The notes beneath the pieces were generated by a model, which worked only from the letters and a program-made list of their open reading frames with translations, searched no databases and had not been told where the DNA came from. From Naegleria gruberi (lineage: Eukaryota), in assembly GCA_000004985.1 (NCBI GenBank), contig GG738848.1: a DNA stretch of 64,000 nucleotides; one strand, written 5' to 3'. The position numbers and the translations under genes were made by a program. How positions within the stretch are numbered: position 1 is the first letter of the stretch; every line of letters begins with the position of its first letter. This document shows, piece after piece, positions 22,601-52,510 of the stretch.

Positions 22601-22680
22601 AGCCATTCTCAATTACTGATTTAGAGCAGTGTGTAACAAATTGCATGACCAGAATCCATCCAAGTAGTATAATTCCGTAA
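19651..22680 (+). CDS. Hybrid sensor histidine kinase with a C-terminal receiver (response-regulator) domain and an N-terminal multi-TM sensor region.
   Basis: 1009-aa ORF. The HisKA H-box is SQFLAQMSHELRTPLHGI. The HATPase N and G boxes are LINLVYNAIKFTD and GTGLGLYICKQLVEMMRGTLCVDSEEGVGSTFWF. The receiver is KILIVEDNAINRIVL..FDIIFVDIFMPRLDGYG..SKPF, with the phospho-accepting Asp in FVDIFMP. Hydrophobic segments are present in the first roughly 300 aa. Confidence 0.85.
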   Translation: MPSPSLLDNPFQAVQSTSALYTINIRSFFLQKRDRIVFLSVVIILLTLILPLYHDIYYENSLLSNTIFCTNNLNNERSNQIFSTDEWSDSMHCNSYVANHPFIKNCQFSDYFPQFLRSIPKIYIIFAEYAIKFIIYMFLLMIYWRFHNVMNKLFKFLLLNETIEMENEARQQRTSGESHHVYLLCSEVSRCLCSSIWIMSVQMVLGRNAPAFLWILVYSCLGSVALEMSKKPSIDSKQQTHVTPPPERLPMYRKIFNFLRKLIIGTHATTYVTITVMVICELFVMIYYLKYSASFCSCVVVSILIVQVMTIELIDFMRNHSIEFVQQREMQSMKKVANLYKNLYMTAPDTFLSCVCDSDDVLVRPSDTKVESAYLFLQSFKIVQYNNTAIDTLSCASSLSINPDNYYNHSDHEVTLGDVIINPYKESDEVMRTAALGGNLLSVSDLQNSAVLKLGEVLQDVIQSPFDQTSKQTPTHERILPLFVKGKNQTILTCSLSISKILLYDIDSAGEGMVFFNIILHDITQKYKLLDEINVEKEKAIEANKAKSQFLAQMSHELRTPLHGIIGLTDVLLSKCKEETENEKNLDTFDKAVNLNNICKDSATIAFVESEKSHSPVLEQQTNIIQTIRYSGNILLGLINDLLDICKIESSKIKLENKKFNLRRAIDQIHCGMFQLQAREKSLEFNLQLGENVPTFIVGDEYRLVQILINLVYNAIKFTDMGSVSLIIESKPPSEDNVYELTFKVTDTGIGISQHDLKRLFQPFSQILSTSHKQTKINEGTGLGLYICKQLVEMMRGTLCVDSEEGVGSTFWFTIKFHGEFIPGFEETTRSKILSKNVSSKSLLSLENCKKNELTTVRTPTIEDFESSLPKLKILIVEDNAINRIVLINMLKKIGCTNIAVAQDGLEGVQQFEEFKKTNQLFDIIFVDIFMPRLDGYGTVRRILELESNDPSDHHSILVALTANGFEETRNYCLEHGFDVFMSKPFSITDLEQCVTNCMTRIHPSSIIP

Positions 22681-37215: not shown

Positions 37216-38097
37216 ATGTCAAAACAAACTCCAATAGTTTCATGGTCACAGAGGAAGGAATTTATCAATTTAAATGTAGAAATTACTGATGCAAAAAATG
37301 TTCAAGTTTCTTTCACTGATGAGGGTTTAGTACGAGTGAATGCAAGCAATTCCGATGATAAAGACTTTGAATTACAATTGGAATTATTTAATCAAATTAG
37401 AGCTGAGTTGTGTAAATATAAAGTGACTGGAAGAAAGATTGAATTGAGAATTGAAAAATTGGTTGATGATGTTGAATTTTGGCCAAGATTAACAAAGAGC
37501 AAGGAAAAGAATAGAAATATTACTATTGATTGGAGTAGATGGGTTGATGATGAGGATGAAATTGAAGATGAGGAAGAACAAGAGGATGATGAATCTAATT
37601 GGATGAATCAAAATCAATTCCTAAATAATAATAATCAATCACTTCCAGAAGAATATGATGAAGAAAATGAGGAAGATTACAACGAGGATGATGAAGAAAA
37701 TGAGGAGGAAGAAAAGATTCATGATGGTGAATATGTTTGGTATGAAAACTTGGAAACTAAAGATGCACTCTATCAACATTTCATTGACTCTTACAGATTG
37801 AGAGTTGAGGATGACTATTCACTTAGAGGCAAGCAAAGAGGTCTCTATGCTCAAGAAGATCCATTACAAGATTTCAAAAAGTATCTTGGTAAGGCAAAGG
37901 AAAGAAAAGTATTCCCAGAATGGTGGACTGATAATAATGAACAAGAAATGATTCACATGGCTCTCAACGATGAGTGGGCCAACATTAAGTATGCAGTAGA
38001 GAAACACGACATTCAAGACAAGTACAATGCCATCACTCCTCTCGAACTACGAGCTCTTGCTGAGCTTGTTTTGGATAAAAATTATAGAAACCTTTAA
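37216..38097 (+). CDS. p23/CS-domain Hsp90 co-chaperone with a long acidic C-terminal extension.
   Basis: The N-terminal CS domain is WSQRKEFINLNVEITDAKNV..FELQLELFNQI..YKVTGRKIELRIEK. The signature FWPRLTKSKEKNRNITIDWSRWVDDEDE is collinear with p23 SWPRLTKER..WLSVDFNNWKDWEDDSDE. Confidence 0.7.
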   Translation: MSKQTPIVSWSQRKEFINLNVEITDAKNVQVSFTDEGLVRVNASNSDDKDFELQLELFNQIRAELCKYKVTGRKIELRIEKLVDDVEFWPRLTKSKEKNRNITIDWSRWVDDEDEIEDEEEQEDDESNWMNQNQFLNNNNQSLPEEYDEENEEDYNEDDEENEEEEKIHDGEYVWYENLETKDALYQHFIDSYRLRVEDDYSLRGKQRGLYAQEDPLQDFKKYLGKAKERKVFPEWWTDNNEQEMIHMALNDEWANIKYAVEKHDIQDKYNAITPLELRALAELVLDKNYRNL

Positions 38098-38234: not shown

Positions 38235-40413
38235 ATGTCTCAAACATCGCAAGCTGCTGCTACTGATGAATTGAATCCTCACATACAATTAGACAACCAA
38301 AACAAGGTGGTGGTGGAGGAGGAGACTTGTTTGGATCATCATCATGATGATGTGAATATTGAAGAATCTTTAGAATCAACTATTGAACATTACCATGATG
38401 AAATTGAGGAGAATGAGGTAGTAGCAGATAATGATGATCATCATCAACAACATTCGGACTTGAATCAACAAAAGAATAAGAATAGAAAAAACAAGCCAAA
38501 GAAGGTTTTTCCTGCTTCTCAATTCTTTATTGCCAATCAATCAAAGAGTAATGAAGAAGCTAATCTAGTCGAAACGAATGATGATCATGATGAAGAAGAA
38601 TATTTTCATTCCGAAGAACCAGAACTTGCCTATCACTATAAAGGACATAGTTTTATAGTTAACAAGACAGCATATAAGCCAAATAGTAATTCTGGCAATG
38701 GCAGTAGTAGTAGCAATACAAACAACAAGAATAACAAATCAAAGAAGCAACATCACCACAATCATAGTCATCATCACAAATACAATAATTACTATCAAAG
38801 ACCAAAGACAAAGGAGGAATTTGTGTTGGCCAAGTAGGTATTACTGAAAATTTCAAATTAATATATACTAACCAATTTGAAAGCTTTCATTTCGTTTTGA
38901 GACCCCTTTCTCAGAGTAATACCAATTTTATTAATCAACAATTTCATATCACTGAATATAACAATGGAAAATTTGATGCAGACACACTAGTTGATTGGGA
39001 TACCATTGAATTGGTTATTCAACAAACTCATGATGAAAATCAAGAATGTCCAATTTGTCTTGATACATTTAAGGCACCTAAAATGACAAAATGTGGCCAT
39101 GGTAAGTTTTTAACATGTTTGAATATTGAATATTAAATTTATGATTAGTTTTTTGTTATCCTTGCATTTTGAGACATGTTGCTTTAGGAGAAACAAACTA
39201 TAGAAAGTGTCCTCTCTGCAATGAAAGTGTTTATATAGATGCATTGAGAAGTGTAAGAGTTGAATACAGGAAGAAATATAAAGAAAATGACAAGATGAAT
39301 TTAGTTTTGCTTAAACGAGATAAGAAACTTATAATTCCAGACCTTGTTTCTGAGTTGAACACTACCAAGGAGGGTGTTCAATCAAAGGATTTACCTACTA
39401 TTTATCCAGTTGATGGTGATTCTGAAAGTGCCAAATTTTCCCGATTTAATGTTACCTATGATATTTCTCAAATATTAGAAAAGGAACTTGCTGATTTGGA
39501 CAATTCTCTTAAAACATCTGAAAGTGCTGCGGAATCTGAATTTATAGTATTGGCAAAGGATCAAGTTCTTCAAAGAAAAAAGGATTGGCTTGAATGGACA
39601 AAAACACATTTGGCAAAGGGAAAACCAACCCAACCAAAAAACAAATCCTCACAAAAACCTGAAGTATCTCAAGCCACAGAGAAGAAAGAAGTTGAGGATT
39701 ATTGGTATTATCAATCCTCTGATTGTCAAATGATATTCTTACATCCTCTCTGTTCAAAAATGTTAATTCACGAATTCCAAGATTACAGTAATTTTCCAAC
39801 CAATCTCAATGATTGTCCAATATTAGAAATTGAAACAGTTGAACTCAATGAGGAATTAAGAAGGAGATATCCTGTTCTTAAGCATGTTCCTTGTGGTTGT
39901 TACATTTCTCTGGTAGAAATTGATATGAGGAATATTGTATCAAAGGAGACGATTAATACATTTATAAAAGATATTAAGCATAGAAAATATAGAAGAGACG
40001 AAAAGGTGAGAATGAGAATAAGAGAAGAACAAGAGGAAAAGAAGAATGAGGAAAAGAGAAAGGAAGAAGAAAGACTTGCCAGGGAAAGATTAATTCAAGA
40101 GTTGCACATTTCTAACTTTCCAGAACTTATTTCCACTCCTCCACCTGTTAACAGTGATTTCCACTTCCCTACAACGTTGAAAACAGTAACACCTGTCCAA
40201 CAACAACAGCAACCTGAAAAGAAACAAAAGAAGCCAAACGATTGGTCAAAACGTAAGCAACAAATAGACATTACCCAATCAGTAGCAAGTTCTTCAGTAC
40301 AATTACAAGGAGATTGGGCTAAGAAAACTAACACAAATACTACAACAAAGAATGTATCAACCAGTTCTGGTAAAAAAGATGATTTTCCATCCATAAAGTC
40401 AAAGAAGAAGTAA
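38235..40413 (+). CDS. RING-finger protein, RNF10-like, in 3 exons: 38235..38837, ~38910..39108 and ~39155..40413.
   Basis: Exon 1 is low-complexity and His/Asn-rich. The RING is CPICLDTFKAPKMTKCGHG|FCYPCILRHVA..KCPLC and is split by a GTAAGT..GATTAG intron. The downstream block YWYYQSSDCQMIFLHPLCSKMLIHEF is typical of the RNF10 family. The C-terminus is Lys/Glu-rich. Confidence 0.65.
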
Positions 40414-40467
40414 TTTTTACAATAAACTTAGTATTAGTTTTATTCTTAGGTATTTTACATGTACAGG

Positions 40468-43400
40468 TTATGCATTTTTAGCAAGATATTTTTCAATTTT
40501 TTCTTTAAACATATCATCAATGTAAGTATTTTGAATGTTAATTACTCGAATGGTATTATTCGATTTGGCAAAATCAATCAAAGCTAAAGCTGCACCAATT
40601 GAAATCAAATTTCCACTCAAATCAAGCTCAACAATTGTTGGATGAGGCTTGAGAATTGAGACTAGGGTTTCAATAGCTGGATTTCTGAACCCTTGTTTTG
40701 GCAAACTCAATTTGTGGAATTCAACATTTAAAAGAGTTTCCAAGAAAGGCTCTAATCCCTTATCACCTAAATAATTGTCTGATAAATTAACTTCTCCATC
40801 GGTGACGATAGTATTTGTGCCAAATTGAGCTCTAAGACGAGTGTTTGGTCTAAGAGATCTCTTTTCACAGTTTTCAACATACACATCCTCAAGAGTTCTT
40901 TCCTTAACAGGTTCTTCTTCCTTAGTTTCTTCCACCACATATTCAGCTTGAGCTTCTTCGACATGTGTTTCTTCTGGTTGTTTGTGTTTTTCTGGTGCGT
41001 CAACACTTGTTTCCTCATGAGGTTCTTGTTTTTCCTCTGGTTGTTGGTGTTTTTCTTGCTTGTCTTCTTGTGTTTCTTCTTTTTGAGATGATTTCACGTG
41101 TGTTTCTTCTGAGAGTTTGGTATCAACAAAAGTTTCTTGGTGTGTTTCTTCCTGTGTTTCTTCATGATGGTTTGTTTCATCTTGTGTTGTGTATGAATCT
41201 TCAATTGTTTTAGTTTCTTCAGCAAATCTCACATGATGTTCCTCTTCAGTGGAAGATTCTTCTGAAGGTTGTTCTTCAAAGGTTTCAAAATCTTCTTCAA
41301 ACGAGTCAAACTCATCTTCCTTTTGAAGTTCAGCTTGTTCTTCTTCATGAGTTGTCTCCTTTTGTTCTTTTTGGTTATCTGCTGTCTCAATCTCTTCTGC
41401 TTGTACCTCCTCTTGTTGGTCAACCTCAAAAGGCAAACTTTCTTCATGGAATGGTTCTTGAACTGTTTGTTCTCTTGGAGATTCTTCTCCAGGAAAATGA
41501 TCCATATCTGTTTCTTGTTGATGACTTGTATCTTCTTTTTCTTCAGCTTCTTCTGATTGTTCTTTCATTTCCTTTTCCACTTGATCAACAAACTCGTTTG
41601 ATTCTTGTTTAATTTCTGTTGATTCCTCATTTGCAAACTCTTCGAATTGTTCCTCGAATTGATCTTCGAAGTGATCTTCGAATTGTTCCTCATGTTGATC
41701 TTGAGTTTCCTCTTGAGTTGGTTCATGGTCTTCTTGAGTTTCTTCTTGAGTTTCCTCATATTTCTCTTCGAAAAATTGATCTGTTTCATTGAACTCTTCC
41801 GTATTTTGCTCGAATTCATCAGTAGTTTCATTGAATTGATTTTCCTCAAAGTTTTCTTCATGACTTTCAATATTTTCAAAATTCTCATGTGTTTGTTCTT
41901 GGTTTTCAAGGCTCTCGAAGGTTTCTTCTTCAGTATTTTCTAGGGCAACTTCGTTATTTTCTGAGAATTCTTGTTCAACATGTTGTTTGCTGTTTTCAAA
42001 TTCATCCTCTTTAGTGACTTCCTCAGAAGATACTTCCTTAATGGACTCTTCATGTGCTGTTTGGTGAACCTCAAAGTCCTCTTCTTCTGAAACATGTACC
42101 TCTTCTGATTGTTCTTCATGTGATTCTTCCAATTCCTCTTGCTTACTTTCCACATATTCAACTGTTTCTTCAACTTGTTTAATCTCGCTTTCCTGATTGC
42201 TTTCTTGATGTCCAATATGTTCTTCGGTGCATTTAATTTCATCATTTTGTTCTTTGTGACTGTGTTCCTCAATAATTTGCTCCTCTTGTTCCTCAACCTT
42301 TTTGACCTCATCAACACTTTCGTGCTTAACTTGATGATGATCTTCAACCCTATCATGGTGTTCTTCATTCTTGATATCTTCCCTATGTTCTTCAGTTGTC
42401 TCAATGTTTTCATGATTCTCTTCGGTATGTTTATGCTCTTCAACAGATGCTTCCTCAATAGCTTGAGGTTTCTCTGTATTGGCAACTTCAAAAGGTAAGC
42501 TTTCCTCTTGAGGTGGTTCTGTAACTGGTTCCATTTTTGGTTCTTCTTCTTTGACAATTTCTTGTGCATGGATTTCTACTATTTCTTCAGTTTGCTCTTC
42601 GGAGGATTTGTTAATAATCTCAGTCTCTTGATATGCAATATTTTCTTGCTTATCATCGTGATTATGCTTTTCCTTCTTCTCTTCATTATCATGCTTTTCC
42701 TTCTTCTCTTCGTGATCATGTTTCTCAACCTTTTCTTCTTTCTTATCGTCTTTCTTCTCTTCAGGATCATGTTTTTTCTTCTCTTCCTTTTCTTCCTCAA
42801 CTTTCTCATCGTGTTTAAGCTCGTTTTTCTTCTCTTCATGATCATGCTTTTCCTTTTTCTCTTCACGATCATGAATCTCAACCTTTTCTTCCTTAACTTC
42901 CTCATGGTTATGTTTATCCTTCTCTTCATGAACATGTTTCTCAACATTTTCTTCCTTAACTTCCTTCTCATGGTTATGTTTATCCTTCTTTTCTTCATGA
43001 TCATGTTTCTCAACATTTTCTTTCTTATCCTCGTCGTGATTATGTATATCCTTCTTTTCTTCATGATCATTCTTTTCCTTCTCTTCGTGGTCATGTTTCT
43101 CAACATTTTCTTCCTTAACTTCCTTAACCTCCTCGTGGTTATGCTTATCCTTCTTTTCTTCATTTTCTGATTTTTTCTCATGACCTATTTCAAATGGCAA
43201 ACCTTCTTCTTGGAGTGGTTCTTGAATCGTTTGTTCTCTTGGGGATTCCACGTCTGCAAAATGATCCATATCTTCAATGTCTCTATGGCTTTTAGTTTCA
43301 GTATCTTCTTGTTCATGTGTTTCATGATCATCTAAGGTTTGATATTGCTCATGGTCGTGGCTTTCAGGAAGGGTAGAGCTGGTTTCATCATGATCCTCCT

Positions 43401-46308
43401 CAGTACACTCTTGTTCAGAGTGCACATCATGGAGATGAATAATAGATGTGTTGATTTCTTCCACATATTCGTTATGTTGGTCCGAATGTACTTCTTGCTT
43501 GATTTCTTCAATATGTTCACCGTGTTCCTCAACCTTTGTTTCCTCATGATTATACTGTTCATCTTGATGATCTGATGGTTCATGATGTTGAGTGGAATCG
43601 TGAGATTCCTGCTCTTCCATTTTTTCTACATGCTCGTCTTGCGCGCCAAATTGTTCATCTGTTTGCTCTACAGTATTAAGGGTGGACTCTTCAACATTCA
43701 CTTCCTCTTCATGTTGTATTTCTTCAGATTTAGGTTCTTCTACTTGTTGGACAGGTTCCTCTTCAAGTGGTTCGGCTGGTTCTTCCTCAGATGGAGATTC
43801 TTCTTGAACTGTGTCCTCATGAGTTGCTTCTATGGCTTGCTCTTCCAGTGGTGTCTCTTCAATAGGTTGCGATTCTTCTTGAATCAGATCTTGTGATTCT
43901 TGAACCTCTTCCTCTGGAGAAACAGGTTCCTCTTGTTCAATTTCTTCTTGTTGAGCTTCTTCGAAAAGTTGCTCTTCTTGAGTCTCTCCGGCTGAATTTT
44001 CTTGGACTGGTTCTTCCTCTTGTGTTTCTTCTTGAACAGTAGATTCCTCAATTGGTGCTTCTTGAACTGTTGCTTCTGGTGTTTCCTCAATTGGTTGATC
44101 ATCTTCAGTTTCTTGAGGAATTTCTTCAGTCTGTTCTTGAGCAGGTTGCTCTTCTTGAACATATTCCTCAATGTCAGCAGGTTGTGCTTCTTGAGCAACT
44201 TCCTCTTGAGAAACAGGTTCTTCCTGTTGAAGTTCTTCTTGTTTATCCTCAACTTCATGAGCAGTTGCTTCTAATGGTTGTTCTTCGTGTACTGGTTCCT
44301 CATCTACAACTTGCTCTATTGCAGGTTCTTCTGGTTGAACTTCTTCTTGTAGTGGCTCTTCATGCTCCTGGGTAGTTTCTTCTTGAGTTGTTACTTCTTC
44401 TGGTTGAGTTTCTACAATCTCCTCAGCTGGTTGAACTTCTTCTTGTAGTGGCTCTTCAGGAGAAGCTTCTTCTGGTTGAGGTTCTTCAATTCTTTCCTCC
44501 TGGGTTTCTTCCACTGGTGGTTCTTCTACTGGCCCAACTTGCTCTGGTTCTTGGGTCTCATCAACAGCTGATAGCTCTTCTTGGTGAGTTTCCACTTCTT
44601 GATCTGTAGATTCGTCAACCTCCTGCACTGGAACAGTTTCTGGGGAGGGGTCTTCATTGAGTTTCTCTTCCTCAGCTTGTTCCCCAACAGGTTGAGCTTC
44701 TTGAACCTCTTCCTCTGGTTGAATTTCTTCTTGCTCTTCTTGAACATGATCTTGGGAAGATTCTTCCTGGGTTGGTTCTTCAACTGGTTGTGATTCTTCT
44801 TGAATCAGATCTTGTGATTCTTGTTGGACCTCTTCCTCTTTAGAAACAGGTTCCTCTTGTTGAAGTTCTTCTTGTTTATCCTCAACTTCATGAGCAGTTG
44901 CTTCTAATGGTTGTTCTTCGTGTACTGGTTCCTCATCAACAACTTGCTCTATTGCAGGTTCTTCTGGTTGAGCTTCTTCAGCAGGAGATTCTTCTTGAAC
45001 TGTCTCTTGAGTTGGCTCGACAGGAAGGTCTTCTTGTGTCTCCAATGGTGCATCTTCAACAGGTTGAGCTTCTTCCTGGGTTGGTTCTTCAACTGGTTGT
45101 GATTCTTCTTGAATCAGATCTTGGGAATATTCTTCCTGGGCTACTGGTTGTTCTTCTTGAGCTACTTCCTCTTGTTCAATTTCTTCTTGTTGAGCTTCTT
45201 CTTCGAAACGTTGCTCTTCTTGAGTCTCTTCAGCCGAATGTTCTTGGATTGCTTCTTCCTCTTGTGTTTCTTCTTGAATAGTAGATTCCTCAATTGGCTC
45301 TTCTTGAACTGTTTCTTCAGGTGATTCTTGGATTGGTTCTTCTTGAGGAACTTCTTCTGTGGATTGAAGTATTTCTTGAGTTTCTTCTGCTTGAGGTTGC
45401 TCTTCTTCAGAAGGAGAAGAATTCACTTCTTGAGGAATTTCTTCAGTCTGTTCTTGAGGAGAATTCACTTCTGTTGCCTCAACAGGTAGGGTTTCCTCTT
45501 CCACTTGTTCTTGAGCTGGAGATTCTTCTGTTTGAGGTTGCTCTTCCAACGGAGCTTCCTCTTCAATAGGCTTATCCTCTTCTTGTGAAGGTTCTTCCTG
45601 AAGTTGTTCGTCCTTAGCTTCAGGCTGGTTTTCCTCGTTCAATTGATCAACCTGGGTTTGTTCTGCTGTTTCCTCTGCAACAGTTTGATTTTCCTCCTGA
45701 AATTCATTTAATTCAGTTTCCCCAGTTGGTGCTGATTCTTGTGGCTTCTCTTCCTCTACTGGTTGATTTTCTTGAGGTGATTCTTCTTGGATTGGTTCTT
45801 CTTGAGGTACTTCTTCTGTTTCTTCGGCCGTAGAAGTATTCACTTCTGTTACTGCTTCGGAAACTTCGGCAGCATCTGAGACAGGTTGTTCCTCTGTTTT
45901 TTCGTCCACTTTGGAATCCTCTTCCTTTGTTGGTTCTGAAATTTCTTCAGTAGTATTATTCTCGATTTGTTCCTTTTTTTCCTCTACAGGATGTTCCTCA
46001 GTATTTTCATTATTTACAGAATTTGATGGTTCCTTATGCTCTTTTTCATCAGAATTGAGGTTAGAAGCCGATACATTTTTTGAACCTTGTTGTTTTTGCT
46101 GATACTCATCCTTGACTGTATTTGCTAGAGCATCTCTGAAAGAAGCATTATCGATAAGAACAGGCGTAAGCTCGACACTTGTAGGAAGACTTTCCACTAC
46201 AGGTTCTGTAATTTCATCTTCATTAAAGTCATCTGTTGTATTTCCGATTAGATTATTATCGTTATGAACCTCAGTGCTCATTCTTTTTGTTTTTTCAATG
46301 TTATACAC
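40468..46308 (-). CDS. Giant acidic low-complexity repeat protein of 1946 aa with a C-terminal RI-type leucine-rich-repeat cap.
   Basis: Single uninterrupted ORF. About 1750 aa are Glu/Gln/Pro/Val-rich imperfect repeats (EEPxQEE..., duplicated 40-mers EEPAIEQVVDEEPVHEEQPLEATAHEVEDKQEELQQEEPVS). There is a His/Lys/Glu block of decapeptide repeats (KHDHEEKKDKHNHEE...). The C-terminal 150 aa are LRR (NLSDNYLGDKGLEPFLETLLNVEFHKLSLPKQGF..ELDLSGNLISIGAALALIDFAKSNNTIRVINIQNTYI). Confidence 0.6.
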   Translation of the reverse strand: MYNIEKTKRMSTEVHNDNNLIGNTTDDFNEDEITEPVVESLPTSVELTPVLIDNASFRDALANTVKDEYQQKQQGSKNVSASNLNSDEKEHKEPSNSVNNENTEEHPVEEKKEQIENNTTEEISEPTKEEDSKVDEKTEEQPVSDAAEVSEAVTEVNTSTAEETEEVPQEEPIQEESPQENQPVEEEKPQESAPTGETELNEFQEENQTVAEETAEQTQVDQLNEENQPEAKDEQLQEEPSQEEDKPIEEEAPLEEQPQTEESPAQEQVEEETLPVEATEVNSPQEQTEEIPQEVNSSPSEEEQPQAEETQEILQSTEEVPQEEPIQESPEETVQEEPIEESTIQEETQEEEAIQEHSAEETQEEQRFEEEAQQEEIEQEEVAQEEQPVAQEEYSQDLIQEESQPVEEPTQEEAQPVEDAPLETQEDLPVEPTQETVQEESPAEEAQPEEPAIEQVVDEEPVHEEQPLEATAHEVEDKQEELQQEEPVSKEEEVQQESQDLIQEESQPVEEPTQEESSQDHVQEEQEEIQPEEEVQEAQPVGEQAEEEKLNEDPSPETVPVQEVDESTDQEVETHQEELSAVDETQEPEQVGPVEEPPVEETQEERIEEPQPEEASPEEPLQEEVQPAEEIVETQPEEVTTQEETTQEHEEPLQEEVQPEEPAIEQVVDEEPVHEEQPLEATAHEVEDKQEELQQEEPVSQEEVAQEAQPADIEEYVQEEQPAQEQTEEIPQETEDDQPIEETPEATVQEAPIEESTVQEETQEEEPVQENSAGETQEEQLFEEAQQEEIEQEEPVSPEEEVQESQDLIQEESQPIEETPLEEQAIEATHEDTVQEESPSEEEPAEPLEEEPVQQVEEPKSEEIQHEEEVNVEESTLNTVEQTDEQFGAQDEHVEKMEEQESHDSTQHHEPSDHQDEQYNHEETKVEEHGEHIEEIKQEVHSDQHNEYVEEINTSIIHLHDVHSEQECTEEDHDETSSTLPESHDHEQYQTLDDHETHEQEDTETKSHRDIEDMDHFADVESPREQTIQEPLQEEGLPFEIGHEKKSENEEKKDKHNHEEVKEVKEENVEKHDHEEKEKNDHEEKKDIHNHDEDKKENVEKHDHEEKKDKHNHEKEVKEENVEKHVHEEKDKHNHEEVKEEKVEIHDREEKKEKHDHEEKKNELKHDEKVEEEKEEKKKHDPEEKKDDKKEEKVEKHDHEEKKEKHDNEEKKEKHNHDDKQENIAYQETEIINKSSEEQTEEIVEIHAQEIVKEEEPKMEPVTEPPQEESLPFEVANTEKPQAIEEASVEEHKHTEENHENIETTEEHREDIKNEEHHDRVEDHHQVKHESVDEVKKVEEQEEQIIEEHSHKEQNDEIKCTEEHIGHQESNQESEIKQVEETVEYVESKQEELEESHEEQSEEVHVSEEEDFEVHQTAHEESIKEVSSEEVTKEDEFENSKQHVEQEFSENNEVALENTEEETFESLENQEQTHENFENIESHEENFEENQFNETTDEFEQNTEEFNETDQFFEEKYEETQEETQEDHEPTQEETQDQHEEQFEDHFEDQFEEQFEEFANEESTEIKQESNEFVDQVEKEMKEQSEEAEEKEDTSHQQETDMDHFPGEESPREQTVQEPFHEESLPFEVDQQEEVQAEEIETADNQKEQKETTHEEEQAELQKEDEFDSFEEDFETFEEQPSEESSTEEEHHVRFAEETKTIEDSYTTQDETNHHEETQEETHQETFVDTKLSEETHVKSSQKEETQEDKQEKHQQPEEKQEPHEETSVDAPEKHKQPEETHVEEAQAEYVVEETKEEEPVKERTLEDVYVENCEKRSLRPNTRLRAQFGTNTIVTDGEVNLSDNYLGDKGLEPFLETLLNVEFHKLSLPKQGFRNPAIETLVSILKPHPTIVELDLSGNLISIGAALALIDFAKSNNTIRVINIQNTYIDDMFKEKIEKYLAKNA
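42650..43170. repeat. Intragenic tandem array of about 30-33-nt units (..atcatgcttttccttcttctcttc..). These encode the KHDHEEKK(E/D)KHNHEE repeats of the giant protein.
   Basis: Visible as periodic near-identical strings in the sequence. An antisense ORF (42579..43181) of RKK/MRK repeats mirrors it. Confidence 0.7.
43860..45400. repeat. Intragenic segmental repeats inside the giant gene. A near-identical copy pair of about 120 nt lies at about 44225..44345 and 44867..44987. A roughly 40-nt motif (ggttgtgattcttcttgaatcagatcttg..) recurs at about 43861, 44781 and 45081.
   Basis: Direct comparison of the sequence lines (cttcttgtttatcctcaacttcatgagcagttgcttctaatggttgttcttcgtgtactggttcctcatc.acaacttgctctattgcaggttcttctggttga). 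This matches the duplicated 40-aa peptide blocks. Confidence 0.7.
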
Positions 46309-47002
46309 CTAGTTTATGTAATAAATAATTGTTTAAGTCCTTATTATTTAAAAAAATTAATGACCAACAATGTGTTGAGGGTTGTTGGGATTTTTTTTGT
46401 TCTGTCTCTTGCCCTTAAAATGCTCTTGCTAAGACTACAATGCAGCCAATATGACACATGCACAACCCGCCAATAAAAACTACAAAAAATCCTCTTTTAC
46501 GCCTGTACCTAACCAAGTACAAGGAGGTTCTTTGCAAAGATTTAAACTCACACCCAACGCTTTGACGATAATTGATGTGTTTGTGCCTCTCTACGAGTTG
46601 GGCGGGAAAGTAATAAAAAGAAAATGGGCATATAAAATACCAATTCTGTAAATTCTGTATCGATCACAGAAGAGATCCATTAGTATGATCTTCATCATTC
46701 TCTATTGTGAATAATTCTAAAGTTCAACTGAGATTTTAAACCTTGGAAAGAAATCAACACCAAACAAGTGTCTTCTCATTGTTACCAACTTGGAGAGCTC
46801 ATTATATCCAAACAGAACTCACAACAAATTGTAGGAATTTGTCTCATTTTGATGATCAGTTTCGTCTGCCTAATTTTATTAGACAAGTAAGATTTGAATT
46901 TGTATTTAAAGATTTAACAGGTCTTAATCTGGAATATTTCTGAATTACCATTAGGTAGCTATTCCAATGAAAACAAGATAAAGTTATGTAGACTATTATT
47001 AT

Positions 47003-48145
47003 TTAGTTTGATCCCAGAGCTCTTCCAGAACCCCAGCTGTGATTATTGGCTGATTGGTCGTTCGAATTATTGTTTCCTCCTCTAAACCACCCACTAATAC
47101 TGCTCATAAATCCACCTGAACTTGGTTGACTCGGGGTTGATTGAGTATCTTGTTGATTTGTTTGTGCTGTTGCGCTTGTAAAAACAGCCTCATTAGATAC
47201 AAAGTAAAAAGATCTTTCTCTGATAAATTTTGGAATTTTTCTGTCAATAAACAGGAATACCTTATTAATTGGTGTTACAAATCTCACAAGGATCCAAATC
47301 AAATATCCAGAAATCATGCCAGTCAAATGTCCCATCAATGAGACATTTGGCATTAACAATGAAGTAACAATTAACATTAACCATGGAATTAATTTAGGTG
47401 CAAAATCATCTGCATTGGCACCAGGATATAACTGTTCAAAAAGTGGTCTATATTGAACTGTAAAAACTAAATATCCAAACAAAACACCACTATATCCCAC
47501 AGTGCATCTATCCAATAAAAAGGAAAGTGTTTGTCCAGCTCCAAAACCTTGAATAAAAAGTGCATCAATAGCAACCCAAACAGCAGATCCAAATATTATC
47601 ATAAATAATGAAATAAAGAAAAAGTATATAGTTCCAAGTGTTGATTCAATCCTATTTCCGAATTGATATAAAGCCAGCATGTTAAACAATATATGTGTTA
47701 TACTCCCATGAAAGAAAGGGAATGTAAATAATTGCCAAACTTTAGTGGTTAATATTGTTGTGGAGTATCTATAGCAAATATCAGAAGACTTTGGTTCATT
47801 GAAAACGCCCTGTACAATATACAAAATAATACAAACACAAAATACAATATTACTACATAATGGAAAATATAAAAACCAATTTTTAACTTTGATATGAATA
47901 GGATCTTCAATATGATAGCCAGATTCAGGCTGCGAAGGAATTGTATGAATATTTGATGATCCACCTGTTGATGATCCAATTGCAGTATTCGTTAGAAATC
48001 CTCCTGAAGAAGATGATGATGTTTGTTGATTATTATTGTGGCTTCCTCCTCTTTGTAAGTCTTGTACTCGACCACTTGGAGAGAAAAACTCCCTTCCAAA
48101 CGAAAACATTTTTTGTTGTTTGTTGATGGGAGATTTTCGATGCAA
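47003..48145 (-). CDS. Rhomboid-family intramembrane serine protease.
   Basis: 380-aa ORF. Multi-TM. Catalytic-Ser motif GYSGVLFG (GxSG) and a downstream TM His (MGHLTGMISGYLIW). The preceding HGSITHILFNMLALYQFG is a typical rhomboid TM2 and L1 region. The N-terminal tail is Ser/Gly-rich. Confidence 0.7.
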   Translation of the reverse strand: MHRKSPINKQQKMFSFGREFFSPSGRVQDLQRGGSHNNNQQTSSSSSGGFLTNTAIGSSTGGSSNIHTIPSQPESGYHIEDPIHIKVKNWFLYFPLCSNIVFCVCIILYIVQGVFNEPKSSDICYRYSTTILTTKVWQLFTFPFFHGSITHILFNMLALYQFGNRIESTLGTIYFFFISLFMIIFGSAVWVAIDALFIQGFGAGQTLSFLLDRCTVGYSGVLFGYLVFTVQYRPLFEQLYPGANADDFAPKLIPWLMLIVTSLLMPNVSLMGHLTGMISGYLIWILVRFVTPINKVFLFIDRKIPKFIRERSFYFVSNEAVFTSATAQTNQQDTQSTPSQPSSGGFMSSISGWFRGGNNNSNDQSANNHSWGSGRALGSN

Positions 48146-48322
48146 AATGGAAATTAAAAATAGGGTAGAGGGATGCCTTGGAAAAATAGAATAGTTTCGA
48201 AATAAGGAGGCGAAATTAAGGATTCAAGTAAACTAAATGGTAAATCCCAACCCAAGGACTCTTTCAATTTATACTTATTTTGTAAAATACAATATTTATT
48301 ATGGATATAATATATTTACAAA

Positions 48323-49376
48323 TTAAAAAAAGTCACTCATATCCTCGAATGAATAGTTTGATGGATAATCTATATTTTCAAACCCAGTCCTTGGTGGGCT
48401 TGTAATGAAGAATGTTGGCGAAATATCCAATCCAGGTGATGAACAACTTGATGCCATCAAATTGGTTGGAGAACACATGCCAAAAGTATTACTTGTCAAT
48501 AATGGAACAGAAAGTGGTGAAGGTCTTGGTTTTGTAATTTTGGTTAATTGACTCATTGTACTAGGGATTTGTTGAGTAAGCGCAGAAGGAATTGAATTTT
48601 GATCAAATTGCAATTTTCCAGTTAGAATATCGCTTACTAACTTTTCCAACTCGGCAACTCTCTTCTTGAGCCCTTGATTTTCTTCGAAAAGGTTTGTTTG
48701 GTCTTGTGCAGGAATAATATTAATATCAATAGCCGGTTGCTTCTTTCTCTTCGAGTCACTGCTGTAACTACTTTCAGAGTCTTCTTCATATTCTCGCTTT
48801 TTCAGTTTCTTGTCTTCTGTTGTCTTTTTATCATTGGTGACGGTCTCTTTTCTAGTCTTTGTTCTAATCCAAAAGTTGTTTGATAAACCAACAAGCTTGA
48901 CTTGTTCTCCTTGTTTTTGAACAAGTTTCAAATAACCAATACGAGATTTGCCATTGCTTCCTCCCTGCCAAAGATAAGAATTTATGTAAATAATAAATAC
49001 TTACTTTGTTACATCTTGGAATTGTCAAATTACATTCGTGTAATTCGTTAAAGGCTTTTTCTGTATGGAGAGTTTCGTTAATAAATAACTGACAAACAAG
49101 TGATGAACCATCAATATCTAGTGGTTTAAAAAGTTGAACTTTAAGTTGATCAGAAACAAAGACATTATGAGTGGTGTTGCTAGGAGATCGTTTGCCATTA
49201 ACATTAAAACCGTTTGGTAAACATTCAATCCTTGCCAAACCACCATTAATTGTCTTATCATTGATGGAGAAAAGTATTGTAATGTCATTGTTTTTTGTTG
49301 TATTGTTATTTGTTGTTTCTTCATCATCAAATAATTTGCAAACGTCTTCTTCAGTAAACTCCATTTTTCTCTCCAA
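48323..49376 (-). CDS. Hypothetical nuclear protein with a putative coiled-coil/zipper. Two exons: 49376..49005 and 48964..48323, with a 40-nt intron.
   Basis: The GTAAGT donor after ..IPRCNK and the acceptor ctttggcag|GGA join ORFs 48864..49376 and 48323..48931 in frame (..RCNKGGSNGKSRIGYLKLVQKQGEQVKLVGLSNNFWIRTK..). The protein has a basic stretch KKLKKREYEE and a helix LKKRVAELEKLVSDIL. No confident family. Confidence 0.45.
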
Positions 49377-49771: not shown

Positions 49772-52510
49772 TTACTTTCTGTGGGCAAGAATGTGTACAC
49801 CATCATTAATTCTGGCACGAATATTACCCAAACTTTCCTTGATCTTATCACGGAAAGCATTATCTGCTTCCTCTTTAGAGGCATCGAGAATTAAACATTT
49901 TCTCAACCACAAGACATCTTCAATACTTGACAATTCTGGGATACCTGTACCCAACATTAATGTAAACAAGGTCATTATCATGTGACCATATTTACGTAAA
50001 ATATTGTAAGCCTTACAACCTAATTCACTGAATTTTTCATACATGACACTATTTTCACCACCCATAACATAGGCATACATTGGAGTGAAAACGAAAGGAG
50101 TAGTTTCACGTTTCAAACCAGCAAATGTCTTAAAGTGCCCCAAAAAGTGGCCAAAGTCAATGTGGAACAAGTCTCCCTTCTTGGTTATCATAATATTGTC
50201 ATTGTGTCTGTCACCAATACCTAAAACATAGGTTGCAGAACAGTAACCTGCACAAGAGTGTACAAAGTTATTAACTACTGTATCCCATTCTTCTTCACCG
50301 TTATGTTCTTTGAGCCATTTGTAAATTGGATCTTGTTTGAAAGCACCAGAGAAACCAGCTCTCTTCTTTGTAATATTTGCAATGGTTTGACTGTTTAAAA
50401 CAATTTCAAGCATACCAGTCATATAACCAGTACAAATACAACCATAAGGTTGCATATGAAGATCTAAACCTTCCTTCTTCCACAACTGATCCATAACACG
50501 TAAAACTTGCAAGGTCAATAAATCCTGACGTAAATCGTCACCAGCCTTAAACATGACAAGAATATCATCACCTGTTTCGTCAGCATTCTTGAAACAAAGC
50601 CATAATGGCCTCTTTGCAGAGTCCATGACTCTACATTTTTCTGGAATGATACCAATAACTTCCATACGTGGAGAGAGTGGTAACTTGTATTTTGGTGGTT
50701 GTTTGAGTCCATGAAGTAATTGTACAAGTGCTTCATTAACAGTAGCCTTCTTTTCATGTTTGATCTTAATGGCAATATCGAGCAATTGATCCAAAACACC
50801 GTTTTGTTTCAACAATTCTCTTCTGTGACCACCTGAATTCAATAAATATTCTTCCAAGATAAGACCGTGTCTCTCTTTTGCTGTTGGAACGTGCATTTCG
50901 GCCTTCAAATGCCAAAAGAGAATGTGACCAATGATGTGTGTTGATCTCAAACCTCTTTGAAGCAAAAATCTAGCAAGACTACTGTCATGATATAATTCAT
51001 ACTTAAGTGTTTGAACTAATTGAAGCAAAAAGTCACTCAATTGAACATCTCCTAATTCATTAAGTCTTTCAACTGAATATTGTCTAACTTTTGCATCAGC
51101 AAAGTTATAGTCCAATAATTCTAAAGCATCAACTGGAGTCATTGGTTTCCATCTAGGAAGTAATGTGTGAACAGTATAGACAGCTTGTGGCATCTTCCAT
51201 GGCACGCTCAAAATAAACTTTGGTAAAGCTTTTGGTATGTCAACAAGCTTTTCCTTATTGGACCAAAGTAACCATTTTTCTTCCTCTGTTAGATTTTGAA
51301 GTGGATCTTTGGAAATAATCTGATCAAGTCTCTGTTTCAGTTGTTCTCCTTGTGGTAAATCTTTGAAAAATTCATTAATCTTTTGTTCAAAAGAGGCCAA
51401 ACGTTTAGCCATCTTCTTTGGAGGTCTACCTTGAGGGAAGACCACTGGCAGTGGATAACGATCAAATTGATAAGCAATAACGATTGGTGTTTCATCAGTT
51501 CCAGTATTTTCAGCAACGACACTAATTGGTTTAGCTCTATCATTTGGCCACATTGGAGAAAGATAATCTCCTTGGTTCAAAAATCCCTTAAAGTTAATCA
51601 TTGTCTTAATCACATAACCGAGAGGAATATCCTTTGTACTGACGTGTGAAGGTGTATGGAAAGGATCTTTGGAAGTTGTTTGATTCTTTGTTATCACTCT
51701 TGAGAAGAGAGTAAAGCAGAGCTTTGTTTCTCTTGGAATATCAGAAAGTAAAACATCATCAAATACTATGAATTGATTCCATCTAGGAGATCTACTGAAA
51801 GGTACCATTTTAGTAAATCTGGCTTTTGTAAGTGGTGTACCACCGTGATATAATTCACAGCATACATATAAATAGGTATCGTCAATTTGAGACAAATTTG
51901 AAATAGAGTTGAAATTGAGATTGTCAATGCCCATAATTTTAACTCGTGCACATTTGACTAAATCCCACAAACTCAAATACTGCATTTTGTGCCATTCCTT
52001 TTCTCCAAAACGAATGTCATCATGTGCATAAATTTTTTGGTCCTTCTCGTGTTTAAAATCATATGAAACAGTTTTAAGAGTGACATCTCTAGGATCCAAT
52101 TCAGCCTTCACAGTTTCCTTATCTAAAAGTGTTAGTGTTGGCTTAACTGCCTTTTTCATACATTTTCTAATATGTTCAAATTCTGCCATTTTGTAATCAC
52201 CATACATGTATTCGGCAGTACCAGCTGCTTTAAATACCCAATCTTCCTTCTTTCTTCTCTGTTGATGGGCTGTATTCAATTTGTTTAAAAATATTTCAGC
52301 AAAATCGTCAGCTGTCGTGTTAAAATCACATTCAACAAGTTTTGCTGCCTTATTACCATCAAGTGTACAATTTACGTTAATGTAGAATTTTTTAGTCAAT
52401 TCATTTGGATTAATTGGTTCAACACTCAAAAATACAGGTGGAAGGAAAGCTTCTCTGTCTTCACTTTTCTTATCACTCTTTTCAAAGTGTTGAAGTCTGA
52501 AATTTTCCAT
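49772..52510 (-). CDS. Phosphatidylinositol 3-kinase catalytic subunit, class I-like. It has Ras-binding, C2, PIK-helical and PI3/4-kinase domains.
   Basis: 912-aa ORF. The RBD-like N-terminus is VFKAAGTAEYMYGDYKMAEFEHIRKCM. The helical domain is LWSNKEKLVDIPKALPKFILSVPW..LELLDYNF. The kinase domain has GDDLRQD, the catalytic loop GIGDRHNDNIM and the activation loop HIDFGHFLG. Confidence 0.85.
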   Translation of the reverse strand: MENFRLQHFEKSDKKSEDREAFLPPVFLSVEPINPNELTKKFYINVNCTLDGNKAAKLVECDFNTTADDFAEIFLNKLNTAHQQRRKKEDWVFKAAGTAEYMYGDYKMAEFEHIRKCMKKAVKPTLTLLDKETVKAELDPRDVTLKTVSYDFKHEKDQKIYAHDDIRFGEKEWHKMQYLSLWDLVKCARVKIMGIDNLNFNSISNLSQIDDTYLYVCCELYHGGTPLTKARFTKMVPFSRSPRWNQFIVFDDVLLSDIPRETKLCFTLFSRVITKNQTTSKDPFHTPSHVSTKDIPLGYVIKTMINFKGFLNQGDYLSPMWPNDRAKPISVVAENTGTDETPIVIAYQFDRYPLPVVFPQGRPPKKMAKRLASFEQKINEFFKDLPQGEQLKQRLDQIISKDPLQNLTEEEKWLLWSNKEKLVDIPKALPKFILSVPWKMPQAVYTVHTLLPRWKPMTPVDALELLDYNFADAKVRQYSVERLNELGDVQLSDFLLQLVQTLKYELYHDSSLARFLLQRGLRSTHIIGHILFWHLKAEMHVPTAKERHGLILEEYLLNSGGHRRELLKQNGVLDQLLDIAIKIKHEKKATVNEALVQLLHGLKQPPKYKLPLSPRMEVIGIIPEKCRVMDSAKRPLWLCFKNADETGDDILVMFKAGDDLRQDLLTLQVLRVMDQLWKKEGLDLHMQPYGCICTGYMTGMLEIVLNSQTIANITKKRAGFSGAFKQDPIYKWLKEHNGEEEWDTVVNNFVHSCAGYCSATYVLGIGDRHNDNIMITKKGDLFHIDFGHFLGHFKTFAGLKRETTPFVFTPMYAYVMGGENSVMYEKFSELGCKAYNILRKYGHMIMTLFTLMLGTGIPELSSIEDVLWLRKCLILDASKEEADNAFRDKIKESLGNIRARINDGVHILAHRK

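What the first reader, a model, noticed from the sequence alone, without database searches (positions are those of the whole stretch)
40468..46308. 1946-aa Glu/Gln/Pro-rich repeat protein with a His/Lys/Glu decapeptide array and a C-terminal LRR cap
A single 5.8-kb exon encodes an extremely acidic protein made of nested repeats. The DNA shows tandem arrays of about 30-nt units (42650-43170) and longer near-identical segments (about 44225-44345 versus 44867-44987). The only globular part is a roughly 150-aa RI-type LRR at the extreme C-terminus. The His-rich KHDHEEKK array could bind metal. Internal repeats are nearly identical, which suggests recent expansion, and such arrays risk collapse in short-read assemblies.
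Basis: seen in the sequence. Interest (0 to 1): 0.5.

Follow-up and report, generated by a model that had tools for sequence, protein, structure and literature searches.

The report
Giant acidic protein with LRR anchor
This is a real but apparently unannotated gene of the amoeboflagellate Naegleria gruberi that encodes a 227-kDa, almost entirely disordered, extremely acidic protein ending in one small folded leucine-rich-repeat module; that module most resembles the one in the flagellar central-pair protein FAP101, and the protein's function has not been tested.

Summary
The ORF is real: window 40468-46308, minus strand, with the likely ATG at 46281, giving 1937 aa. The protein has 29.5% Glu, 10% Gln, net charge about -540 and pI 4.1. 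The window is Naegleria gruberi NEG-M.

Single-exon orthologues that share the same downstream neighbour exist in N. fowleri (2426 aa) and N. lovaniensis (2410 aa). A more distant one exists in Willaertia (1572 aa). All are annotated as hypothetical, and no N. gruberi model was found in the protein collections.

Few parts are conserved:
- a 45-aa N-terminal motif;
- "EESLPF" short motifs;
- a Phe/Glu-rich cluster;
- the C-terminal 143-aa module of two cap helices plus four RI-type LRRs (AF2 pLDDT 96).

The roughly 1750 aa in between cannot be aligned and differ in composition between species (Glu/Gln/Pro, His/Glu or Lys/Glu).

The His/Lys/Glu array has a 27-nt (9-aa) period with 63-82% matching copies. 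Only one 148-nt pair is near-identical (96.6%).

Best reading: an LRR-anchored polyanionic tail. The mechanism is inferred. Interest is modest.

The parts
40468..46281 (-). Coding sequence: ATG at 46281, stop codon at 40468-40470, 1937 aa, single exon.
   Evidence: ORF list and translation. First ATG, with an in-frame TAG upstream of the GTG. Orthologues are single-exon genes.
46081..46227 (-). Conserved N-terminal island, aa 19-67 ([35 protein letters not shown]).
   Evidence: BLASTP gives 63-67% identity to N. fowleri and N. lovaniensis. It is the only alignable region apart from the C-terminus, and tblastx agrees.
43582..45984 (-). Glu/Gln/Pro/Val-rich disordered half, aa ~100-900, built from diverged segmental duplications.
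   Evidence: Composition per 100 aa, self-BLAST and charge-hydropathy plot.
44832..44979 (-). Copy A of the only near-identical internal duplicate (aa 435-483).
   Evidence: 148 nt at 96.6% identity to 44199-44346, with 5 nt and 3 aa differences.
44199..44346 (-). Copy B of the near-identical duplicate (aa 646-694).
45071..45407 (-). Older segmental duplicate (aa 292-403), paired with 43841-44156 (aa 709-813).
   Evidence: 340 nt at 77% identity. At protein level the blocks are 44-71% identical.
42641..43163 (-). His/Lys/Glu array (aa ~1040-1214) with nonapeptide core EKHDHEEKK. It holds most of the protein's 14 HxH motifs.
   Evidence: TRF gives periods of 27, 66 and 48 nt with 63-82% matches. 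Repeat family D1. Register printout.
43190..43273 (-). EESLPF-type motif, copy 1 (DMDHFADVESPREQTIQEPLQEEGLPFE, aa ~1003-1031).
   Evidence: Repeat family D10: 85% identical to copy 3. Motif scan.
42488..42571 (-). EESLPF-type motif, copy 2 (EPKMEPVTEPPQEESLPFE, aa ~1240-1265).
   Evidence: tblastx match to the single N. fowleri motif.
41426..41509 (-). EESLPF-type motif, copy 3 (DMDHFPGEESPREQTVQEPFHEESLPFE, aa ~1591-1619).
   Evidence: It aligns with SEPLTEESLPF of N. fowleri and N. lovaniensis.
41182..42084 (-). Phe/Glu-rich acidic-aromatic zone (aa ~1400-1700), e.g. EQFEDHFEDQFEEQFEEF and EDEFDSFEEDFETFEE.
   Evidence: Phe count per 100 aa rises to 7-9 here. The same feature occurs at the equivalent position in N. 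fowleri and N. lovaniensis (EETFEEEFEDFE).
40471..40899 (-). C-terminal folded module, aa 1795-1937: two cap helices (Y..C......PN) followed by four RI-type LRRs.

Best explanation
Shown: this is a genuine, intron-less Naegleria gruberi gene that seems to be missing from the public annotation. It is the orthologue, sharing the same downstream neighbour, of N. fowleri FDP41_009509 and N. lovaniensis C9374_014364. A more distant counterpart is Willaertia ABK040_006661. The product is about 1790 aa of intrinsically disordered polyanion, followed by one compact, autonomously folding LRR module of two cap helices and four RI-type repeats. Only the LRR module, a 45-aa N-terminal island, EESLPF-type short motifs and a Phe/Glu cluster are held constant. 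The long middle turns over by duplication and compositional drift.

Inferred: it works as an 'anchor and tail'. The C-terminal LRR module docks the protein on a fixed partner, and its closest solved relative is the module of the central-pair C1a protein FAP101. The conserved short motifs would recruit further partners. The huge Glu-rich, partly His-rich tail would project as a charged spacer or brush and act as a low-affinity, high-capacity sink for cations (Ca2+, Zn2+ and similar).
For: Gene reality:
- The ORF and its improbability by chance.
- Organism identified through exact matches of neighbouring genes.
- Orthologues found by an exhaustive HMMER scan and named from their sources.
- The convergent downstream neighbour is conserved in all three Naegleria species.

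Conservation pattern:
- BLASTP aligns only aa 19-67 and aa 1795-1936.
- Motif copies and His, Phe and Pro profiles across the four species.
- Alignment of the region from the motif to the LRR.

Disorder:
- Charge-hydropathy plot.
- AF2 pLDDT 41-58 upstream of the LRR.

Folded module:
- pLDDT 96.4.
- The FAP101 LRR fragment scores best against the single-module family rather than against generic multi-LRR proteins.

Anchor role:
- The module exists alone as proteins of 135-147 aa.
- In other relatives it sits at the extreme C-terminus behind low-complexity, often acidic, tails of 30 to 2280 aa (up to 41% Glu).
- It also forms the N-terminal domain of NACHT-like/WD40 STAND proteins.
- This pattern is typical of a portable docking domain.

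No signal peptide, transmembrane segment or basic run was found.
Against: - No binding partner, cellular location or expression data exist. No paper mentions the orthologues.
- The FAP101 link rests on one domain at 31% identity.
- The rest of FAP101 is structured and shows no match to this protein: there is a single matched stretch.
- The cation-sink role rests on composition only, and His content is not conserved (5% in N. gruberi, 14% in N. fowleri, 3% in Willaertia).
- AF2 gave no confident contact between the EESLPF motif and the LRR, so the partners of the motifs remain unknown.
Confidence: 0.5

Rival explanations
1. It is the heterolobosean counterpart of FAP101/C1a-86. It would be made in the flagellate stage, dock through the LRR module on the C1a projection of the axonemal central pair (with PF6/SPAG17, FAP119 and calmodulin), and carry a greatly expanded acidic tail.
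For: - It is also the best single-stretch sequence hit in PDB: 35.9 bits for the protein and 87 bits for the family profile.
- FAP101 carries the same Y..C......N cap motif.
- Naegleria and Willaertia both have flagellate stages (established knowledge).
- The closest module relatives come mainly from flagellated Discoba.
- FAP101 is reported as conserved between Chlamydomonas and T. brucei (bioRxiv 10.1101/2025.05.29.656921).
Against: - The architecture differs. FAP101 is 835 aa and largely structured (602 residues modelled), its cap motif lies about 330 residues before its LRRs, and nothing outside the module matches.
- The FAP101 fragment prefers ~185-aa kinetoplastid-type proteins (58 bits) to the Naegleria proteins (34-37 bits). 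A smaller Naegleria paralogue could therefore be the true counterpart.
- I could not search whole Naegleria proteomes.
- FAP101 is absent from the mouse central-apparatus map (PMC12297659).
Confidence: 0.2
2. Its main role is metal or cation storage and buffering. The His/Glu arrays (HxH nonapeptides in N. gruberi, poly-His in N. fowleri) would bind Zn2+, Ni2+, Cu2+ or Ca2+, and the LRR would only position the store.
For: - N. gruberi has 14 HxH motifs, concentrated in the 27-nt array.
- The orthologues have 13-14% His, with 66-79 HxH motifs and His runs of up to 11.
- The protein has about 35% acidic residues.
- By established knowledge it is analogous to histidine-rich Ca-binding protein, calsequestrin and other His-rich metal binders.
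Against: - His-richness is not conserved: Willaertia has 2.7% His and one HxH motif, and N. gruberi has 5%.
- There is no signal peptide for a storage compartment.
- Nothing was measured.
Confidence: 0.15
3. It is a tropomodulin/leiomodin-like actin-filament end binder. The C-terminal LRR cap would bind actin at the pointed end, and the disordered N-terminal part would carry auxiliary binding motifs.
For: - The overall layout is the same: a disordered N-terminal part with short motifs and a C-terminal LRR cap.
- Naegleria amoebae rely on very active actin-based motility (established knowledge).
Against: - Sequence identity is only 11-24%, and phmmer gives E = 0.04.
- Pfam finds no Tropomodulin domain and no tropomyosin-binding helices.
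Confidence: 0.05
4. It is a nuclear acidic chaperone analogous to ANP32 or nucleoplasmin. The LRR would provide specificity, and the polyacidic region would bind histones or other basic proteins.
For: An LRR cap of about 150 aa combined with a long acidic low-complexity region is the ANP32 design (established knowledge). The protein has an extreme negative charge.
Against: - The domain order is reversed, and the LRR is RI-type rather than the ANP32 type.
- No ANP32 chain appears among the PDB hits listed (the best 60 of each search).
- There is no basic NLS-like run.
- The tail is more than ten times longer than in ANP32.
Confidence: 0.05
5. It is an artefact: a chance ORF in low-complexity DNA, a pseudogene, or a mis-assembled repeat region.
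For: - No public N. gruberi protein model covers the ORF.
- Repeats can mislead assemblers.
Against: - The chance of this ORF arising without a stop is about 1e-63.
- Intact 7.2-kb single-exon orthologues with the same downstream neighbour exist in two other species.
- The LRR is 72-73% identical at protein level, and the N-terminal island is conserved.
- Most repeats are diverged enough (61-89%) to assemble unambiguously.
Confidence: 0.03

Closest known systems
FAP101 / C1a-86 (Chlamydomonas reinhardtii central-pair C1a projection; PDB 7N6G chain 4T, 7SQC)
   Same: - It is also the top Foldseek hit.
- FAP101 matches as one module-sized stretch, unlike RI or NLRs.
- It has the same Y..C......N cap motif, the 'HP' position and the LRR asparagines.
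   Different: - FAP101 is 835 aa and mostly structured.
- Its cap motif lies about 330 residues before its LRRs, and the module is internal rather than C-terminal.
- It has no giant acidic tail, and nothing outside the module is similar.
- Orthology is not established.
Uncharacterised Discoba proteins ending in the same cap + 4-LRR module (e.g. Cryptobia EP00758_P009277, Stygiella, Ploeotia, Jenningsia, Acrasis AKO1_007374)
   Same: - 28-37% identity over the full module.
- The module sits at the extreme C-terminus.
- The N-terminal extension is variable, low-complexity and often acidic.
   Different: - Most are 135-320 aa. The Naegleria proteins carry tails of 1800-2300 aa.
- None has a known function.
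Tropomodulin / leiomodin
   Same: - Layout: a disordered N-terminal part with short binding motifs and a small C-terminal LRR cap.
- These are the best matches of comparable domain size by Foldseek (TM 0.5-0.67 both ways).
   Different: - Identity is 11-24%.
- There are no tropomyosin- or actin-binding helices and no Pfam Tropomodulin match.
- The tail here is about 10 times longer and polyanionic.
Ribonuclease inhibitor / NLR-type (RI-like) LRR proteins
   Same: The repeat type is the same: 28-29-residue strand-helix units with LxxLxLxxNxL and 'LGDxG' features. RI scores E = 4e-13.
   Different: Those are long horseshoes of 8 to more than 15 repeats. Here there are four repeats with a dedicated two-helix cap, and the module functions as a terminal domain.
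Polyanionic or His-rich disordered proteins (titin PEVK/poly-E, histidine-rich Ca-binding protein, calsequestrin, ANP32 acidic tails)
   Same: Composition and predicted physical behaviour: an extended, highly charged chain, with His/acidic arrays that could bind cations. The comparison rests on established knowledge of those proteins.
   Different: There is no sequence homology, no signal peptide (unlike HRC and calsequestrin) and no Ig/Fn domains (unlike titin). The analogy is compositional only.

Membership tests
RI-type (ribonuclease-inhibitor-like) LRR class | Repeats of about 28-29 residues, each a beta-strand followed by an alpha-helix, with the LxxLxLxxN consensus. | tested here: met
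   AF2 DSSP shows four strand-helix units at about 28-residue spacing. phmmer gives RI at 4e-13. The family profile hits RI at 1e-46.
RI-type (ribonuclease-inhibitor-like) LRR class | Passes Pfam's own threshold for LRR_6 (PF13516). | tested here: not met
   The score is 21.7 bits against a cutoff of 23.4 on the isolated C-terminus, and there is no hit on the full-length protein. This is a sensitivity issue: several relatives do pass.
FAP101 / C1a-86 | The cap + LRR module with the same boundaries and fold. | tested here: met
   [not shown]
FAP101 / C1a-86 | Similarity over the rest of the protein (the ~600 structured residues outside the LRR). | tested here: not met
   Only one matched stretch, restricted to the module, appears. 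The rest of the target is predicted to be disordered.
FAP101 / C1a-86 | Reciprocal best match (orthology). | tested here: inconclusive
   The FAP101 LRR fragment scores 58 bits with ~185-aa kinetoplastid-type proteins and 34-37 bits with the Naegleria proteins. Complete Naegleria proteomes could not be searched.
FAP101 / C1a-86 | Location in the central-pair C1a projection, associated with PF6, FAP114, FAP119, FAP227 and calmodulin (PMC6548120, PMC6891083). | not testable with these tools
   Needs localisation or flagellar proteomics.
Tropomodulin / leiomodin | N-terminal tropomyosin-binding and actin-binding helices (Pfam Tropomodulin). | tested here: not met
   No Pfam hit on the full protein or on the N-terminal 199 aa.
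Tropomodulin / leiomodin | C-terminal LRR actin-binding site 2. | tested here: inconclusive
   [not shown]
Heterolobosean orthologue group (N. fowleri FDP41_009509, N. lovaniensis C9374_014364, Willaertia ABK040_006661) | Shared N-terminal island, EESLPF motif, C-terminal module, giant low-complexity middle and conserved gene neighbour. | tested here: met
   For Willaertia, only the module (43% identity) and an ETSLPIED motif are shared, and its gene neighbourhood was not examined.
Secreted or ER-lumenal His-rich/acidic Ca-binding proteins (HRC, calsequestrin) | N-terminal signal peptide. | tested here: not met
   The N-terminus is hydrophilic. The most hydrophobic 19-aa window outside the LRR has a Kyte-Doolittle mean of 0.75.

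The most novel reading that the evidence does not exclude
The cap + 4-LRR module may define a Discoba-wide family, extending to green algae through FAP101, of appendages of the axonemal central pair. In such proteins the module would dock on the C1a projection, and a variable acidic tail would set the charge or the cation environment at the interface between the central pair and the radial spokes. Naegleria would have inflated that tail to about 1800-2300 residues (net charge -460 to -540, His-rich in the pathogen N. fowleri). That would make it a natural extreme for testing electrostatic or Ca2+/Zn2+-dependent control of flagellar beating.
Probability: 0.12. Interest if true: 0.55.

Novelty: new variant of a known kind. 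Interest (0 to 1): 0.3.

Why it matters
- It adds a large gene (5.8 kb, 227 kDa) that seems to be missing from the public Naegleria gruberi protein set, and links it to 'hypothetical' genes in the pathogen N. fowleri and in N. lovaniensis.
- It defines a compact cap + 4-LRR docking module shared with the central-pair protein FAP101 and with many small Discoba proteins. This gives a concrete, testable lead (flagellar central apparatus) for a set of orphan proteins.
- The protein is an unusually clean case of constraint restricted to the termini and to short motifs. The middle of about 1,750 residues has drifted to different compositions in related species: Glu/Gln/Pro, His/Glu and Lys/Glu.
- None of this overturns current understanding. 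The value lies in annotation and in generating a hypothesis.

Tried and rejected
1. A word-indexed protein search with the C-terminal 183 aa found nothing, although the exhaustive HMMER scan and a later full-length search found the orthologues. The first negative was a tool-sensitivity failure, not real absence.
2. I looked for a public N. gruberi model of this ORF. The exact 1937-aa protein is not in the collection. Gene tables around annotated neighbours could not be retrieved. The claim that the gene is unannotated therefore rests only.
3. Self-docking hypothesis: the EESLPF motif might bind the protein's own LRR, giving auto-inhibition or network formation. AF2 on the natural segment aa 1585-1937 gave pLDDT of about 52 for the motif and no contact. 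This does not support the idea, but the alignment was shallow over the motif, so the test is weak.
4. Known short-motif classes were compared by eye with EESLPF and with the FEDHF/FEDQF motifs: the clathrin box, FFAT, LIR and FxDxF. Only two FxDxF matches occur in N. gruberi and none in the orthologues. No match is consistent across species, so no claim is made.
5. The afdb50 fold library was unavailable.
6. A profile search with alignment A1 in the word-indexed database returned only 19 small proteins, none with an informative name. Their precomputed Pfam label PF27087 is not in the local Pfam copy.
7. Literature searches for the orthologue locus tags and for 'Naegleria' plus 'histidine-rich' or 'glutamic acid-rich' found nothing relevant.
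8. No Rfam family matches in 39000-48500 on either strand, and there are no tRNAs in the window. The other-frame and opposite-strand ORFs inside the gene (e.g. 42508-43170 +) are by-products of the codon repeats.
Full report
**1. Observation**

It is listed from a GTG directly after an in-frame TAG. The first ATG is at 46281, in an A-rich context, and gives a 1937-aa product.

From the window's base composition, a stop is expected about every 14 codons. The chance of 1946 open codons is about 1e-63.

The protein has these properties:
- 29.5% Glu, 10.0% Gln, 5.6% Pro and 5.1% His
- no Trp and only three Cys
- net charge about -542, pI 4.1, about 227 kDa

Pro and Gln are concentrated in aa 100-900, His in aa 900-1400 and Phe in aa 1400-1700. 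The strong negative AT skew at 42-46 kb reflects the GAA/CAA codon bias on the coding strand.

**2. Repeats**

- *His/Lys/Glu array.* TRF and the repeat finder confirm an array at 42641-43163. Its core period is 27 nt (the nonapeptide EKHDHEEKK), with 66-nt and 48-nt higher-order units, and its copies match only 63-82%. 'Decapeptide' and '30 nt' are therefore approximations.
- *Near-identical pair.* The 'near-identical longer segments' are real but were mis-registered by 9 nt. 44199-44346 and 44832-44979 share 96.6% identity over 148 nt, with 5 nt and 3 aa differences. At the coordinates as written, the identity is 39%.
- *Other duplications.* These are older. The pair 45071-45407 versus 43841-44156 is 77% identical, and the rest are 61-89% identical.
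- *Species specificity.* The N. fowleri orthologue has no comparable arrays, only short His-codon repeats. The N. gruberi arrays are therefore species-specific, but most are not recent.

**3. Organism and context**

Neighbouring ORFs match Naegleria gruberi NEG-M proteins exactly: XP_002681939 (CS domain, 37216-38097) and XP_002681941 (SANT, 54201-55964), both from a 712,659-bp scaffold. The surrounding genes are ordinary eukaryotic genes: a PI3K, a rhomboid, a cathepsin-propeptide protein, a hybrid histidine kinase, a P450 and others.

The 1937-aa product is not in the 15-billion-protein collection. A full-length search returned only the N. fowleri and N. lovaniensis proteins. The exhaustive HMMER scan with the C-terminus had a 74%-identical N. 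fowleri protein as its best hit, not a 100% self-match. The gene therefore appears to be unannotated in the public N. gruberi protein set. I could not retrieve the scaffold's own gene table to confirm this directly.

**4. Orthologues and what is conserved**

The orthologues are all labelled hypothetical:
- N. fowleri FDP41_009509, 2426 aa
- N. lovaniensis C9374_014364, 2410 aa
- Willaertia magna ABK040_006661, 1572 aa, more distant

The two Naegleria genes are single exons of 7281 and 7233 nt. Their convergent downstream neighbour, a RING-finger gene, matches window 38.8-40.3 kb, so orthology is supported by position. The upstream neighbours differ.

BLASTP aligns only two regions between N. 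gruberi and the other Naegleria species. These are aa 19-67 (63-67% identity) and aa 1795-1936 (72-73% identity; 43% to Willaertia).

Motif scans add further conserved elements:
- An E-[ET]-[SG]-L-P-[FI] motif occurs three times in N. gruberi, with conserved flanks.
- A related EPVVESLP opens the N-terminal island.
- The motif occurs once each in N. fowleri and N. lovaniensis, and ETSLPIED occurs in Willaertia.
- A Phe/Glu-rich cluster (EETFEEEFEDFE, FEDHFEDQFEEQFEEF) lies a few hundred residues before the LRR.

The middle cannot be aligned and differs in composition:

| Species | Glu | His | Lys | Other |
|---|---|---|---|---|
| N. gruberi | 30% | 5% | 6% | 10% Gln |
| N. fowleri / N. lovaniensis | 18% | 13-14% | 4% | His runs up to 11 |
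| Willaertia | 21% | 2.7% | 12% | |

**5. The folded part**

The C-terminal 143 aa were modelled from a 31-sequence alignment. The result has pLDDT 96.4 and consists of two cap helices followed by four strand-helix LRR units.

Sequence searches place it in the RI-like class (RI at 4e-13; family profile at 1e-46). Pfam's LRR_6 falls just below its own threshold.

FAP101 matches as a single module-sized stretch. It shows the family's cap motif (VYIEACERHKVPANS) and most of the signature positions. In the reverse direction, the FAP101 LRR fragment scores best against the single-module family: 9 of its top 10 hits, up to 58 bits. The best single block of any multi-LRR protein scores lower. The Naegleria proteins score 34-37 bits.

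FAP101 is C1a-86, a component of the central-pair C1a projection together with PF6, FAP114, FAP119, FAP227 and calmodulin (PMC6548120, PMC6891083). It is described as stalk-attached and is absent from the mouse sperm map (PMC12297659). It is reported as conserved in T. brucei (bioRxiv 10.1101/2025.05.29.656921).

**6. The module family**

About 30 single-stretch relatives at 28-43% identity share these invariant or nearly invariant positions: Y8, C12, N20, N43, G46, G49, G71, N74, H87, N98 and N115.

Where a source is known, they come almost entirely from Discoba:
- Acrasis
- Stygiella
- Jenningsia and Ploeotia
- Cryptobia and Papus
- Artemidia

The module occurs in three settings:
- on its own, as proteins of 135-147 aa;
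- at the extreme C-terminus behind low-complexity, often acidic, tails of very different lengths;
- at the N-terminus of NACHT-like/WD40 STAND proteins.

This distribution is what one expects of a portable docking or adaptor domain.

**7. Disorder and targeting**

Every 100-aa window from aa 1 to 1800 lies on the disordered side of the charge-hydropathy boundary, and the LRR lies on the folded side. AF2 on aa 1585-1937 gives pLDDT 41-58 and no secondary structure before the LRR. There is no hydrophobic N-terminus, no transmembrane-like segment and no run of four or more basic residues.

**8. Mechanism**

*Shown:*
- a real gene, under constraint only at its termini and at short motifs;
- one folded LRR module whose nearest solved relative is the FAP101 module;
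- a giant polyanionic disordered remainder.

*Inferred:* the LRR module anchors the protein to a fixed partner, the conserved motifs recruit others, and the tail acts as a charged spacer or brush and cation sink. I give this about 0.5.

The specific idea that it is the Naegleria FAP101 counterpart in the flagellar central pair is a good lead (about 0.2), but it fails on architecture and is undecided on reciprocity. Other readings are less likely:
- metal storage as the primary role (0.15);
- tropomodulin-like actin capping (0.05);
- an ANP32-like nuclear chaperone (0.05);
- an artefact (0.03).

The idea that the EESLPF motifs bind the protein's own LRR found no support in AF2.

**9. Novelty and verdict**

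RI-like LRR modules and acidic disordered proteins are both familiar. The FAP101-type cap placed at the end of a polyanion of about 1800 aa is an undescribed variant, and the N. gruberi gene seems to be unannotated. No literature exists on the orthologues. Interest is modest (0.3). The finding is a solid annotation result and a testable lead, not a surprise to the field.

Noticed in passing
window 49772-52510 (-): An intact 912-aa class-I-like PI3K ORF (RBD, C2, PIK and kinase domains). The NCBI N. gruberi model in the same 90% cluster (EFC49347.1 / XP_002682091.1) is a partial 522-aa protein, so the public model looks truncated.
   Followed up: partly
L001 (ENA ERZ929261, PRJEB11402, contig k127_25066): The exact 912-aa N. 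gruberi PI3K is encoded on a contig of an assembly labelled as a metagenome. This implies N. gruberi, or a near-identical strain, in that sample.
   Followed up: no
window 38235-38837 and 39169-40413 (+): These two ORFs together match the 818-833-aa RING-finger genes that lie convergent to the orthologues in N. fowleri and N. lovaniensis (tblastx covers window 38781-40320). They are probably one gene with an intron. Pfam found no RING domain in either ORF, so the RING exon may lie elsewhere or be diverged.
   Followed up: partly
P0130, P0135, P0146 (Artemidia motanka and unnamed contigs): The same cap + 4-LRR module forms the N-terminal domain of ~1450-1650-aa proteins with WD40 propellers; P0130 and P0146 also have a NACHT-like NTPase (NPHP3_N/AAA_16), which Pfam did not detect in P0135. 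It occupies the position usually taken by an effector or adaptor domain in STAND proteins.
   Followed up: partly
P0057 (934 aa, Logan assembly): Another protein ending in this cap module carries its own repeated short motif (EKEPTYVPFQQWIAHEI / EKEPAFVPFQYWIAQEI) in its tail. This suggests that short motifs in the tails are a general feature of the family.
   Followed up: no
Several small relatives carry a precomputed Pfam label, PF27087, that is absent from the local Pfam copy. Its name and scope could not be checked, and it may already describe this module.
   Followed up: partly
window 19651-22680 (+) and 10430-14731 (+): A 1009-aa hybrid histidine kinase (HisKA, HATPase_c, receiver) and a 1433-aa protein with TPR and a C-terminal PAS domain lie upstream. 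These are two-component-type signalling genes in a eukaryote.
   Followed up: no
window 31716-35396 (-), 25458-27083 (+), 27582-28955 (+), 56042-58357 (+), 60899-62512 (-): Five sizeable ORFs (457-1226 aa) have no Pfam match at the thresholds used. They are further uncharacterised Naegleria genes.
   Followed up: no
The word-indexed protein search missed the 72-74%-identical orthologues when queried with the C-terminal 183 aa, but found them with the full-length query. Negative results from that tool should be read with caution.
   Followed up: yes
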